Source: Haliotis rubra (Eukaryota). From it: a DNA stretch of 64,000 nucleotides. A program made the position numbers. The stretch spans positions 1,302,001-1,366,000 of the forward strand of contig NW_025766026.1 of NCBI RefSeq assembly GCF_003918875.1. Reading direction: 5' to 3'. Shown here piece after piece: positions 27,001 to 30,000 of the stretch (the first letter of the stretch is position 1; every line of letters starts with the position of its first letter).

Positions 27001-30000
27001 TAACGCTTGTCATCGTATCCCAACTACACTTCGATGCTCATATTGTCGATCACTGGATTGTCTGGTACAGTCTTGATTATTTACAAACCGCAAAAATAAA
27101 AGTTTAATTACTAATTTGATCAATCTAGAATTCGTATTTGAGAGTTTGTCCGATCCTTACTTGCCTCTTATATTCGTTTGATTTCTTAAAGCCTATTGGA
27201 TATTTCCACAGTCACCCCAAACCATGCGCCATCAGTACAAGCGATGACGTCGACCTAAAGCGTCATCTAAACGACATTGGGACATTTAACATGCAAGATA
27301 TGACTCTATCACATCATTTATGAATAAATATGAATATGATCCATGGTAAAGGAACGATTCATGGGTGTAAAATGTAAAATATTCACATCATGTTTACAGT
27401 GCCAAGTGTTTCTGGTTCCAGACGCCAATGGCACCGTGACGTCAATGGACGTCGCGCCCTGCCCCGTGCAGCCATGCGTGTTCCATAAGGGCGACAACGC
27501 CACTGTCAAAATCTGTTTCACGGCACGTGAGTACTTTTCTCCAGTTACCATTAAACATTCTTAATATATGGTTTTATTAATATCTAAAATTGTTTGGTGG
27601 TAACTAAGTTTCTTATATACCTTTGTTTAATTATACACAAGCAGTGGTTCGCCTGTATGATTAGAGGATATATAGTACCCTGTTTCAGAAGGAATACATG
27701 TATTTCATTTTTTTAAACTTTTAGCATATACCTCTCCATGGGTATCTCTGACATGTTATCTTTGAAAATCAATAAATTTCCCCATTTCGGTTCAAATGTA
27801 CAACAATTCGAATATGGTAAAAAATGTTATACTTTCTTTTGCCCTTCGGGAAATTTTTCTTTTTTCACACGGCAGCAGCGGTGAACCTATCTCGATTTGA
27901 ATGTTCATGCTAATTAAAAACATTTTCAATTTGTGTTCATTTGTTCACAAAATACCGGTTTCAGCTGCGTCGTCCAATAACTTGACAGCTGAGATTGATG
28001 GGGTCGTGGCGGGGATCCCAGTCAAGTTCCCCATGCCGAACCCAAACGGCTGTTACCAGTCCGGCATCGGGTGCCCCATCTCCAAGGGCCAGACCTATTG
28101 CTACACCAACAACCTGGCAGTGCTGCCGTCATACCCCTCGGTAACTGATGATACTCCTCTCGTTAGCTTTAGTACCGTTATTTACACAGTTATAGAGAAC
28201 GTGTACATATACCCTCCTGCCGCCCAATCTACATCATATTATGTACAATCACCACATGTTGTTCCAGATCCGGCTCGTGGTCAAATGGTCACTCTTTGGG
28301 GACGACAAGGTCCCTGAGTTCTGCGTCCTGTTCCCCGTGGAGATAGATGGTGCTGGGAGGGACACTCCCACGGGGAGAGGGGTAGACACGCCCAGGGAGA
28401 GGGAGGTAGACACGCCCACGGGGAGGGAGGTAGACACGCCCACGGAGAGGGAGGTAGACACGCCCACGGAGAGGGAGGTAGACACGCCAACGGAGAGGGA
28501 GGTAGACACGCCCAGTCGTAAAGACGGGAATATTGAATGACTACTCCATGTGCAGTTTCAGTCCTGGGTCTTCCGCATTACCATGGAGACCAAGAGCAAC
28601 ATCCCCTGACCCCGTGGTTCTCACTGTCTCCACAGCCCCAGAGAATAAATTAATTAAGGAGTCAAAGTCGAGAATGATTGGGCAAGTGTAGACTGCCTCC
28701 GTTCAAGGCATGAAATAAAGAATTCCTTTTGGATAACCGCCATATAGCTGGAATATTGCTGAGTGCGGCGTAAAACAACAAGCTTCTGGATTATGTTTGT
28801 TTTTCATCTGGTAGAGATATGTTTTAACTAGAACAACTATGTAAGACTAAATGCCTACCTTTTTGTCAGCTTCCATAACTACTGTGATTGTGAGGTTGGA
28901 CATCGTGTCAGTGTCATAGGTCTTGTTGCACTTCCATTTCAATACAATTTTGCATTAGTCTGACACATTTGAACGATTTAGTGTATATATGATGTTTTAT
29001 TAATGGATTTGTATGTTTTGTGCTTCTGTAAAAACCTGTTCTCCTGCTCGTGTGCTGTACATGCGTTATAGGTATAAACCTACAATGTATATGTTTTAAA
29101 TGGATTTGTATGTTTTGGCTTCTGTAACAACCTGTTCTCCTGCTCGTGTGTTGTACATGTGACTGGGCGAAACGTTCGTTATAGGTATAAACCTACATTG
29201 TATATGTTTTAAATGGATTTGTATGTTTTGAGCTTCTGTAAAAACCTATTCCCCTCCTCGTGCGCTGTACATGCGACTGGGTGAAACGTATACATTGTAA
29301 ACCTTATCTTCATATTAAAAATGATAGCGACCAAAATGCGATAAATTATCTGAATTCCACACAAATAGCAGAAGATGAGAGCAAAGTCAGAATTCTAGTC
29401 ACGAGGCGAGTATTGTAACTCCAGGTCAAACTAATCGTGGCTAGTTAGTTTCTCCAGTCACGTGTACACCATATTTGGTTCATGCCCTGAACCAGTAATA
29501 ATATAGACACAAAGCTTGGTTGGTTACAAATTGCCTTTTTAATATAAGTCTCCATGTTTGTTTTGTGTATATATTTGAAATAAACAATATTACAGTTTTC
29601 TAAAATGTGAGAAGGCTCATTGTTTTTGAATAACCGTGAACCCAATTAAAATATTCTATGATCACGTGGCTTACAGGCTTTGAACTTAGTCAAACCCAGT
29701 CTAAGTAAACTTAAGCTCAGTATTATTCGTTACACTGCTTATAGCGAGACTGAGTCATACCATATTCTTTAGTGAGTGAGTATGCCATCAACATCATGGC
29801 GGGAGACACCAGAAAATGGGTTTCACACATTGTATCCACGTGAAGGATCGAACCAGGGTCTACGGCGTGACGAGCGAACGCTTTAACCATTAGGCTACCC
29901 TACCCCCACATTGGTCCTGTGACTGAGCCAAGTCGAGACCATCTGATGAGTGAGTATGGTTTTAAGCCGCTTTTAGCAATATTCCAGCAATATCACGGCG

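What the first reader, a model, noticed from the sequence alone, without database searches (positions are those of the whole stretch)
28340..28540. NPC2 copy 4 carries a C-terminal tail of about 60 aa built from an (EVDTPTER) coding minisatellite
Seen: copy 1 stops at PAEITD*, whereas copy 4 continues past PVEID into about 7 in-frame 24-bp units rich in T/P and charged residues, ending RKDGNIE*. Known: NPC2/ML proteins normally end right after the last strand. Inference: a disordered, possibly O-glycosylated and length-polymorphic tail on a secreted sterol or lipid binder.
Basis: partly seen in the sequence, partly recalled or inferred. Interest (0 to 1): 0.65.

Follow-up and report, generated by a model that had tools for sequence, protein, structure and literature searches.

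The report
Repeat-built tail on abalone NPC2
One of four neighbouring abalone genes for a small secreted sterol/lipid carrier ends in a real, in-frame 24-base repeat that adds a floppy acidic 63-residue tail whose length differs between abalone species; it is a modest, already machine-annotated oddity whose function is untested.

Summary
Window 28361..28514 is a 24-bp tandem repeat (6.4 copies, 92% matches, TRF score 259). It lies in frame in the last exon of the fourth NPC2-like (ML-domain) gene. After ...FPVEID the frame reads 63 more residues: GAGR, six 8-residue units (consensus DTPTEREV), then DTPSRKDGNIE*. Copies 1-3 stop within a few residues of the domain.

The window matches the Haliotis rubra RefSeq model XP_046567390.1 (isoform X1, 211 aa) letter for letter, exon by exon, so the tail is already machine-annotated.

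- Orthologous models in H. asinina, H. cracherodii and H. rufescens carry the same kind of tail with fewer units (39, 30 and 30 aa) and the same 11-residue ending before the stop.
- H. rubra isoform X2 lacks exactly five units. No canonical intron can make that gap.

By composition the tail is acidic and on the disordered side. Of 132 relatives, 104 end within 5 residues of the domain.

Expression, O-glycosylation and variation within the species remain untested. No paper found describes the tail.

Verdict: a real coding minisatellite tail, a new variant of a known kind, of modest interest.

The parts
22719..22800 (+). Exon 1 of NPC2-like copy 4: start codon and signal-peptide-like N-terminus (MNVLLCIAVCATLLFVAQAESINFKNC plus one base of a split codon)
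   Evidence: tblastn of H. rubra P0002 is 100% over residues 1-27. The donor is G|gtgaga. The whole-codon translation is found in P0004 at 1-27.
27422..27526 (+). Exon 2: first strands of the ML domain
   Evidence: Acceptor ttccag|AC and donor C|gtgagt. The translation is found in P0004 at 29-62.
27965..28140 (+). Exon 3: core of the ML domain
   Evidence: Pfam PF02221 E 1.5e-09, 38.7 bits against a cut-off of 22.7, for this exon alone. Acceptor tttcag|CT and donor TCG|gtaact. Found in P0004 at 64-121.
28268..28348 (+). Start of exon 4: last strands of the ML domain (IRLVVKWSLFGDDKVPEFCVLFPVEID)
   Evidence: Acceptor ttccag|AT. The Pfam domain on P0004 ends at residue 147 and the alignment to human NPC2 ends at 147.
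28349..28537 (+). Coding sequence of the 63-residue C-terminal tail, in the same exon as the last strands
   Evidence: Translation. Found letter for letter in P0004 at 122-211 together with the domain end. No Pfam family matches it.
28361..28514 (+). 24-bp tandem repeat (coding minisatellite): six full units plus 10 nt of a seventh, consensus GACACGCCCACGGAGAGGGAGGTA, which reads DTPTEREV
   Evidence: TRF period 24, 6.4 copies, 92% matches, score 259. Units in register and their 7 differences from the consensus are. 0 of 100 shuffles reached the 5 matches seen.
28538..28540 (+). Stop codon TGA
28644..28649 (+). AATAAA polyadenylation-like signal 104 nt after the stop; a second lies at 28714..28719
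   Evidence: Pattern scan. This is a consensus match only.
2350..2436 (+). Last exon of copy 1, with no tail (...FEVPAEITD*)
11093..11182 (+). Last exon of copy 2, with no tail (...FTVNVKLAW*)
14704..14793 (-). Last exon of copy 3 (inverted), with no tail (...FTVPIQVLW*)

Best explanation
The tail is a real part of the reading frame of a secreted NPC2-like (ML-domain) protein of blacklip abalone. The window is Haliotis rubra or a nearly identical genome.

Shown:
- The last exon carries both the final strands of the lipid-binding domain and, with no stop between them, an in-frame 24-bp minisatellite.
- A tail of the same kind, with the same 11-residue ending and stop position, is present in four Haliotis species. 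The number of 8-residue units differs between them.

Inferred:
- The array grows and shrinks by replication slippage or unequal exchange between units. Because 24 bp is eight codons, every such change keeps the frame.
- The H. rubra expansion is recent. Units 4 and 5 are identical and unit 6 differs by one silent base. The EREV form of the unit is not seen in the other species' models.
- The product is an ordinary NPC2 fold carrying a flexible, strongly acidic, Thr/Pro-rich appendage with no fixed structure.
- Selection keeps the tail open and keeps its general make-up, but not its length or exact sequence.
- Most likely it acts passively as a hydrated, negatively charged and perhaps glycosylated bristle. 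That would change the carrier's size, solubility or retention in extracellular fluid or mucus, not the sterol pocket.
For: - Repeat and frame.
- Gene model: all three introns are GT-AG and the coding length is 636 nt, 211 codons plus the stop.
- Identity to RefSeq: each exon's translation is found letter for letter in XP_046567390.1, covering 209 of 211 residues; the other two are split codons.
- Family: PF02221 over residues 22-147, E 9e-25. Human NPC2 6w5v_D E 5.4e-36. The six family cysteines are invariant in A1.
- Orthologs: tails of 39 aa (H. asinina), 30 aa (H. cracherodii) and 30 aa (H. rufescens, inside the fused model P0007). All end in an 11-residue piece of equal length, DT.SR.D....*. 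Unit counts by the [DE]T[PSF] motif are 7, 4, 2 and 2.
- Isoform X2 lacks exactly 40 aa (5 units). None of the 15 equivalent placements of the 120-nt gap has GT..AG ends.
- Composition: net charge -8, pI 4.44, GRAVY -1.62, on the disordered side of the charge-hydropathy line.
- Paralogs: only copy 4 of the four copies has a tail.
Against: - No transcript, peptide or population data could be seen. All orthologs are predicted models.
- The unit is open in 5 of 6 frames, so openness alone is weak evidence.
- The 7 differences among units are 4 amino-acid-changing and 3 silent, with no clear sign of constraint at unit level.
- The tail evolves much faster than the domain. The last 11 residues are 6-7 of 11 identical between the more distant species pairs, against 84-91% in the domain.
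- The make-up is not mucin-like: 44% charged residues, with acidic residues beside each Thr.
- The passive-bristle role is inference only.
Confidence: 0.6

Rival explanations
1. Neutral passenger. The tail is translated but does nothing. It is a slippage-prone stretch beyond the fold that selection ignores as long as it does not harm folding or secretion, and it may be trimmed by proteases after secretion or in the lysosome.
For: - Fast turnover of sequence and length between species.
- 4 amino-acid-changing against 3 silent differences among units.
- The X2 form with only 23 tail residues is modelled for the same gene.
- 20 of 132 relatives carry unrelated, non-repetitive extensions of 14 aa or more, so extra C-terminal residues are tolerated in this family.
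Against: - The frame, the stop position and the 11-residue ending are kept in four species whose domains differ by 9-16%.
- The acidic Thr/Pro make-up is kept (net -6 or -8 in the three full-length tails) although the exact sequence changes.
Confidence: 0.25
2. Assembly or annotation artefact. The seven-unit array is mis-assembled, or the real allele is the short X2 form, or the gene is not expressed, so the long tail exists only in the reference sequence.
For: RefSeq holds a second model lacking five units. I saw no reads.
Against: - From general knowledge, a 154-bp array is far shorter than sequencing reads and units differ at 7 positions, so collapse or inflation is unlikely.
- Three other species' assemblies also give tails of 30-39 aa.
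- Even X2 keeps a 23-residue tail.
Confidence: 0.05
3. Specific functional module. The units are released as small peptides, or the acidic repeats anchor the carrier to mucus, shell matrix or a receptor in a species-specific way.
For: - Each unit ends in Arg and some units read Gly-Arg.
- NPC2 homologues are reported among snail trail-mucus proteins (PMC11940790, passages seen).
- The tail is acidic.
Against: - There are no dibasic processing sites between units, only one Arg-Lys near the end.
- The unit sequence is not conserved between species.
- No family or look-alike was found for the tail.
- The five 'tail-only' hits are unrelated proteins that merely share an 8-residue DTP period.
Confidence: 0.05

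Closest known systems
RefSeq XP_046567390.1, NPC intracellular cholesterol transporter 2-like isoform X1 [Haliotis rubra], 211 aa (P0004)
   Same: Identical to the window's four exon translations, tail included.
   Different: Nothing differs. It is an automatic prediction with no note on the tail visible to me. Its sister model X2 (XP_046567391.1, 171 aa) lacks five units.
Copy-4 orthologs: H. asinina XP_067681886.1 (187 aa), H. cracherodii XP_071080479.1 (178 aa), and the H. rufescens part of XP_048259345.1
   Same: Same domain (84-91% identical), the same start of the tail after ...FPVEID, the same 11-residue ending, and DTP-type 8-residue units.
   Different: Fewer units (4, 2 and 2 motif counts against 7). 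Unit variants are GREV, GREI and ETEV in H. asinina, and EEEV or GEEV in the two Californian species. The first unit in those two is degenerate and 7 residues long.
Vertebrate NPC2 (human 6w5v_D, 5kwy_C; 1nep_A 'Epididymal secretory protein E1')
   Same: Full-length ML domain match, E 5.4e-36 to 9.8e-33, with the six cysteines aligned.
   Different: The match stops at query residue 147 and chain residue 147. From recall, the native vertebrate protein ends a few residues later with no repeat tail. Sterol binding by the abalone protein is untested.
Patella caerulea KAK6183646.1 (P0161, 211 aa), an ML-domain protein with a 57-residue tail
   Same: 48% identical over 134 ungapped residues, ending at ...FPIAID, then a long low-complexity tail.
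   Different: Its tail is Ser/Asn/Lys-rich and not a DTP repeat. Its kinship with copy 4 is unresolved: sister in the quick tree (SH-aLRT 86), not in the careful tree, AU p 0.337.
Coding minisatellites that build Pro/Thr/Ser-rich tandem repeats in secreted proteins (mucin-type VNTRs; named from recall)
   Same: A short in-frame unit, copy number changing between relatives, and a Thr/Pro-containing low-complexity product.
   Different: Only about 6 units. Ser+Thr+Pro is 32% of residues, and 44% are charged. Glycosylation is untested.
Arthropod NPC2 carriers (3wea_A 'Niemann-Pick type C2 protein'; lineage-specific NPC2 expansions, PMC13151251 and PMC6979364)
   Same: Tandemly expanded NPC2 paralogs, which those papers' abstracts propose serve beyond sterol transport. 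The ML match to 3wea_A is E 7.7e-09.
   Different: Word searches of both papers found no mention of 'C-terminal', 'tail', 'extension' or 'disordered'.

Membership tests
ML domain / NPC2 family (Pfam PF02221) | Full-length match to the family profile above the curated cut-off | tested here: met
   P0004 (identical to the window's exons): residues 22-147 match profile positions 2-133 of 133, E 9e-25, 88 bits against a cut-off of 22.7. Exon 3 alone gives 38.7 bits.
ML domain / NPC2 family (Pfam PF02221) | Six conserved cysteines, which form three disulfides in solved NPC2 (the disulfide pairing is recalled) | tested here: met
   C27, C41, C46, C92, C99 and C140 are invariant in A1. Five of them are at least 90% conserved in the 143-row A2. 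All six align with cysteines of human NPC2. Copy 4 has two further cysteines, C59 and C108.
ML domain / NPC2 family (Pfam PF02221) | Secretory signal peptide | not testable with these tools
   No signal-peptide predictor is on hand. By eye the N-terminus MNVLLCIAVCATLLFVAQA/ES is hydrophobic with a small-residue motif. There are three N-x-S/T sequons in the domain.
ML domain / NPC2 family (Pfam PF02221) | Beta-sandwich fold with a lipid pocket | not tested
Only sequence similarity to solved NPC2 chains was shown.
ML domain / NPC2 family (Pfam PF02221) | Binds sterol or another lipid | not testable with these tools
   This needs a binding assay.
Coding minisatellite (variable in-frame tandem repeat) | Head-to-tail units of about 10-100 bp whose length is a multiple of three, lying inside a coding frame | tested here: met
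   Period 24, 6.4 copies. The array is in frame with the ML domain in one exon.
Coding minisatellite (variable in-frame tandem repeat) | Copy number varies among relatives or individuals | tested here: inconclusive
   Between species it is met: 7, 4, 2 and 2 motif counts. Within H. rubra there is only the X1/X2 pair of predicted models. No population data were available.
Mucin-type O-glycosylated Pro/Thr/Ser repeat domain | Dominated by Ser/Thr/Pro with few charged residues (criterion recalled) | tested here: not met
   Ser+Thr are 13 and Pro 7 of 63 residues (32% together), while 44% of residues are charged.
Mucin-type O-glycosylated Pro/Thr/Ser repeat domain | Carries O-glycans | not testable with these tools
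   This needs glycoproteomics.

The most novel reading that the evidence does not exclude
The tail is a fast-evolving, species-specific recognition or anchoring module on a secreted lipid or semiochemical carrier. For example, it could tether the NPC2 paralog to mucus, gamete coats or shell matrix. Its unit number would then be under diversifying selection in abalone, in the manner of their rapidly evolving reproductive proteins (that comparison is recalled). An older origin shared with the tailed Patella protein is not excluded (AU p 0.337).
Probability: 0.08. Interest if true: 0.55.

Novelty: new variant of a known kind. Interest (0 to 1): 0.3.

Why it matters
NPC2/ML proteins are compact single-domain carriers. 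In this survey 79% of relatives (104 of 132) end within five residues of the fold.

A paralog that has kept a repeat-built acidic tail through the abalone radiation, while its length changes from species to species, is a small natural experiment. It shows how a disordered appendage can be added to a lipid carrier.

The tail also offers two practical tools: a length marker for abalone stocks and hybrids, and a diagnostic tryptic peptide for finding where this paralog is secreted.

It does not change what is known about sterol transport. The protein is already in RefSeq as an automatic prediction.

Tried and rejected
- Structure prediction of P0004 with the 143-row alignment A2 was asked for twice. 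The tool was not accepting jobs, so neither fold nor disorder was modelled, and no fold search was made.
- ESM Atlas look-alikes of the tail gave no usable hit.
- A search with the last-exon peptide among proteins of 49-158 aa scored none of 1036 candidates, so no short fragments with other unit numbers were found.
- The full-length RefSeq protein in the word-based search returned only the same three Haliotis clusters, out of 5072 candidates.
- Five strong 'tail-only' hits in the representative library (P0018, P0096, P0105, P0111, P0145) are unrelated proteins with their own 8-residue DTP-type repeats. I rejected them as relatives.
- A canonical intron as the origin of isoform X2 is rejected. 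All 15 placements of the 120-nt gap lack GT..AG ends.
- For the artefact alternative, I saw only search listings and abstract starts on reverse-transcriptase template switching at direct repeats (PMC2923612, PMC4176328).
- A gene on the other strand or in the other open + frame: there was no Pfam match.
- Single-strand DNA folding of the repeat is no better than shuffles (z 0.26).
- Shared origin with the Patella tail stays unresolved.
- A peptide-precursor reading was considered and set low, because there are no dibasic sites between units.
- Literature: seven searches and word searches in four papers found no description of an abalone NPC2 tail or of NPC2 C-terminal repeat tails.
- The bacterial/archaeal genome collection was not scanned, because it cannot hold abalone DNA.
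- No eukaryotic DNA or read collection was on hand, so ortholog DNA, transcripts and alleles stayed unchecked.
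Full report
**What is there**

The window is eukaryotic DNA with short exons and long introns. It is about 42% G+C and has one run of N at 51426..51623, which I left alone.

At 28361..28514, Tandem Repeats Finder reports one array: period 24, 6.4 copies, 92% matches, no indels, score 259. The consensus unit matches five times at up to three mismatches, all inside the array. The expected number is 0.00, and none of 100 shuffles reached five.

In register the units read DTPTGRGV, DTPREREV, DTPTGREV and DTPTEREV three times. A seventh unit keeps only its first 10 bases and runs on into DTPSRKDGNIE and TGA at 28538..28540.

The frame comes straight out of IRLVVKWSLFGDDKVPEFCVLFPVEID, so the extension is 63 residues long. 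Copy 1 ends ...FEVPAEITD*.

**The gene**

I treated the spliced model exon by exon and did not join the window's exons into one protein for any search or fold. Full-length work used database proteins that the searches returned.

- The last-exon peptide found three proteins among 4423 candidates, all named 'NPC intracellular cholesterol transporter 2-like' from Haliotis.
- Their cluster members include XP_046567390.1, H. rubra isoform X1, 211 aa.
- Mapping these proteins back gives four exons: 22719..22800, 27422..27526, 27965..28140 and 28268..28540. All three introns are GT-AG and the coding length is 636 nt.
- Each exon's whole-codon translation is found letter for letter in X1, covering 209 of 211 residues. 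The other two are split codons.

The window is therefore H. rubra or a nearly identical genome. The tail is already present in RefSeq as an automatic prediction.

Evidence that the protein belongs to the NPC2 family:
- Pfam places the ML domain (PF02221) at residues 22-147 of X1, E 9e-25, over the whole profile. Nothing matches 149-211.
- Exon 3 alone passes the curated cut-off.
- The best solved relative is human NPC2 (6w5v_D, E 5.4e-36). That alignment ends at residue 147 and all six family cysteines are aligned.
- AATAAA lies 104 and 174 nt after the stop.

**Surroundings**

There are four NPC2-like genes in the first 29 kb:
- Copy 1 (+) has exons at 1128..2436. Its first exon is not in the window.
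- Copy 2 (+) lies at 9276..11182.
- Copy 3 (-) lies at 16920..14704.
- Copy 4 (+) lies at 22719..28540.

Copies 1, 2 and 3 end PAEITD*, KLAW* and QVLW*. Only copy 4 has a tail.

In trees, the H. cracherodii and H. rufescens relatives of copies 1 and 3 group apart from copy 4, so copy 4 is not a recent duplicate of them.

Other features nearby:
- Intron 1 of copy 4 (4.6 kb) holds a DDE_Tnp_4 transposase fragment.
- A DDE_3 fragment lies between copies 2 and 3.
- Downstream are Dak1-domain exons (30326..30721 and 37719..38114) and a hAT dimerisation fragment.

**Is the tail coding?**

An open frame alone says little here. The unit has stops in only one of the six frames.

The stronger evidence is comparative. 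Models from H. asinina (187 aa), H. cracherodii (178 aa) and H. rufescens (the last part of a 587-aa read-through model of the whole array) all continue past ...FPVEID. Their tails are 39, 30 and 30 residues long. All end in an 11-residue piece of the same length (DTPSRKDGNIE, DTSSREDRNTE, DTFSRDDGSTK) followed by the stop.

All length differences between the tails are in whole codons. The domains of these species are 84-91% identical. The last 11 residues are 6-7 of 11 identical between the more distant species pairs and 11 of 11 between H. cracherodii and H. rufescens.

The tail therefore evolves several times faster than the fold, yet keeps its frame, its stop and its acidic Thr/Pro make-up. 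Net charge is -8, -6 and -6 in the three full-length tails.

Points against constraint:
- The seven differences among the H. rubra units are four amino-acid-changing and three silent.
- All orthologs are predictions.
- I could see no transcript, peptide or population data.

**Length change**

Counting [DE]T[PSF] starts gives 7 in H. rubra X1, 4 in H. asinina, and 2 in each of H. cracherodii and H. rufescens.

The unit DTPTGREV is shared by H. rubra and H. asinina. The EREV form is seen only in H. rubra, where units 4 and 5 are identical and unit 6 differs by one silent base. This points to a recent expansion by slippage or unequal exchange (inference).

RefSeq also holds isoform X2 (XP_046567391.1, 171 aa). 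It lacks exactly 40 residues, which is five units. I tried every 120-nt gap that gives its ending. There are 15 equivalent placements and none has GT..AG ends.

X2 is therefore not an ordinary splice form. It most likely reflects either a shorter allele in the sequenced transcripts or template switching by reverse transcriptase on the direct repeats. For the second possibility I saw only search listings and abstract starts (PMC2923612, PMC4176328). Either way X2 suggests, but does not prove, that transcripts cross the array.

**How unusual is a tail in this family?**

A full HMMER search with X1 against 1.84 billion representatives gave 1243 proteins at E up to 0.001. I re-scored the best 150 locally.

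| Group among the best 150 | Proteins |
|---|---|
| Match only the tail | 5 |
| Match stops short of the domain end | 13 |
| Match reaches the domain end | 132 |

Among the 132 that reach the domain end:

| Residues after the domain end | Proteins |
|---|---|
| 5 or fewer | 104 |
| 6-13 | 8 |
| 14-29 | 13 |
| 30 or more | 7 |

- The seven longest include the H. cracherodii ortholog, a 1530-aa fusion and a marmoset isoform.
- Three others of the seven (P0059, P0035, P0091) carry non-repetitive extensions; two of these look to me like read-through.
- The seventh is a Patella caerulea protein.
- By eye, none of the other extensions is a tandem repeat.

The five tail-only hits are unrelated proteins with their own 8-residue DTP-type repeats.

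The named tail-less relatives nearest to copy 4 are from bivalves (Tegillarca, Sinanodonta, Ylistrum) and a sea slug (Elysia).

The Patella protein (KAK6183646.1) is 48% identical over 134 ungapped residues ending ...FPIAID. It then has a 57-residue Ser/Asn/Lys-rich tail. Its relationship to copy 4 is unresolved:
- The quick tree made it sister to Haliotis copy 4 (SH-aLRT 86).
- The careful tree did not: Patella grouped with P0015 at 66/58, and Haliotis with the Tegillarca cluster at 46/22.
- An AU test does not reject holding them together (p 0.337).

The trees used 51 rows: 7 named rows plus P0010-P0060, without P0011, P0017, P0018, P0025, P0035, P0045 and P0059.

Whether the two tails share an origin stays open.

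**What the tail is like**

Its 63 residues are 12 T, 10 E, 9 R, 8 D, 7 P, 6 G, 6 V and one each of A, S, K, N and I. It is 44% charged, with net charge -8, pI 4.44 and GRAVY -1.62.

On the charge-hydropathy plot (boundary formula recalled) it falls on the disordered side: H 0.320 against a boundary of 0.459. The domain falls on the folded side.

Further negative results:
- No Pfam family and no Atlas look-alike match the tail.
- The repeat DNA has no special single-strand fold (z 0.26).
- The structure tool was not accepting jobs, so disorder rests on composition only.

**How it most likely works**

Shown: an in-frame minisatellite extends a secreted-type NPC2 paralog, and tail length changes between species.

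Inferred:
- The array changes by slippage in eight-codon steps.
- The product is an ordinary ML fold with a flexible, acidic appendage.
- The appendage acts passively on size, solubility or retention in extracellular fluid, not on the lipid pocket.

O-glycosylation of the Thr-Pro-Thr motifs is possible but untested. The high charge density beside each Thr is not mucin-like (criterion recalled).

Rivals:
- A purely neutral passenger is plausible.
- An assembly or annotation artefact is unlikely, given four species.
- A specific module such as a peptide precursor or an anchor has little support.

**Literature**

Seven full-text searches and word searches in four papers found no description of an abalone NPC2 tail or of repeat tails on NPC2 proteins.

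One paper lists an NPC2 homologue among land-snail trail-mucus proteins (PMC11940790, passages seen). That fits a secreted role for molluscan NPC2 but says nothing about tails.

Supplements were closed.

**Verdict**

It is a lineage-specific variant of a well-known family and is already present in an automatic annotation. Interest is modest.

Noticed in passing
window 1128..28540: A tandem array of four NPC2-like (ML-domain) genes. Copy 3 (16920..14704) is inverted relative to the others, and copy 1's first exon is not found in the window. The H. rufescens RefSeq model XP_048259345.1 (587 aa) is a read-through fusion of pieces of such an array, ending in the tailed copy.
   Followed up: partly
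P0161 / P0017 (Patella caerulea KAK6183646.1 and KAK6183647.1): A limpet ML-domain protein, 48% identical to copy 4, carries a 57-residue Ser/Asn/Lys-rich C-terminal tail. Whether it is the ortholog, and whether the tails share an origin, is unresolved (SH-aLRT 86 in the quick tree, not recovered in the careful tree, AU p 0.337).
   Followed up: partly
window 28361..28514 versus RefSeq isoform X2 (P0002): The second RefSeq model of this gene lacks exactly five repeat units, and none of the 15 possible placements of the gap has canonical splice ends. It is either a short allele or a reverse-transcription artefact.
   Followed up: partly
window 24601..24999 and 26253..26517: Intron 1 of copy 4 (4.6 kb) holds a DDE_Tnp_4 transposase fragment (E 8.8e-08) and a complex of short tandem repeats with periods of 11 to 42 bp.
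   Followed up: partly
window 12713..13255 and 32711..33205: Further transposon remains: a DDE_3 endonuclease fragment between copies 2 and 3 (27.9 bits, just under the cut-off of 28.6) and a hAT dimerisation fragment (E 1.2e-04).
   Followed up: partly
window 30326..30721 and 37719..38114: Two open stretches match the start and the end of the Dak1 domain (dihydroxyacetone kinase / triokinase type), so the next gene downstream on the + strand is a Dak-family kinase with long introns.
   Followed up: partly
window 45308..46565: A 67-bp satellite with 18.8 copies at 95% matches (score 2284), inside a strongly G-over-C skewed stretch at 44-48 kb (GC skew 0.34 and 0.18).
   Followed up: no
window 38867..39028: A perfect 23-bp tandem repeat of 7.0 copies at 100% matches. 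The period is not a multiple of three, and it lies just after the second Dak1-matching stretch.
   Followed up: no
P0018, P0096, P0105, P0111, P0145: Unrelated proteins, three of them named after a lancelet, a freshwater snail and a hagfish, carry long arrays of 8-residue repeats with a D-T/S/A-P core. They score 16-32 bits per stretch against the abalone tail. This looks like convergent low-complexity periodicity rather than homology.
   Followed up: partly
window 51426..51623: A run of 198 N (assembly gap or mask), left untouched.
   Followed up: no
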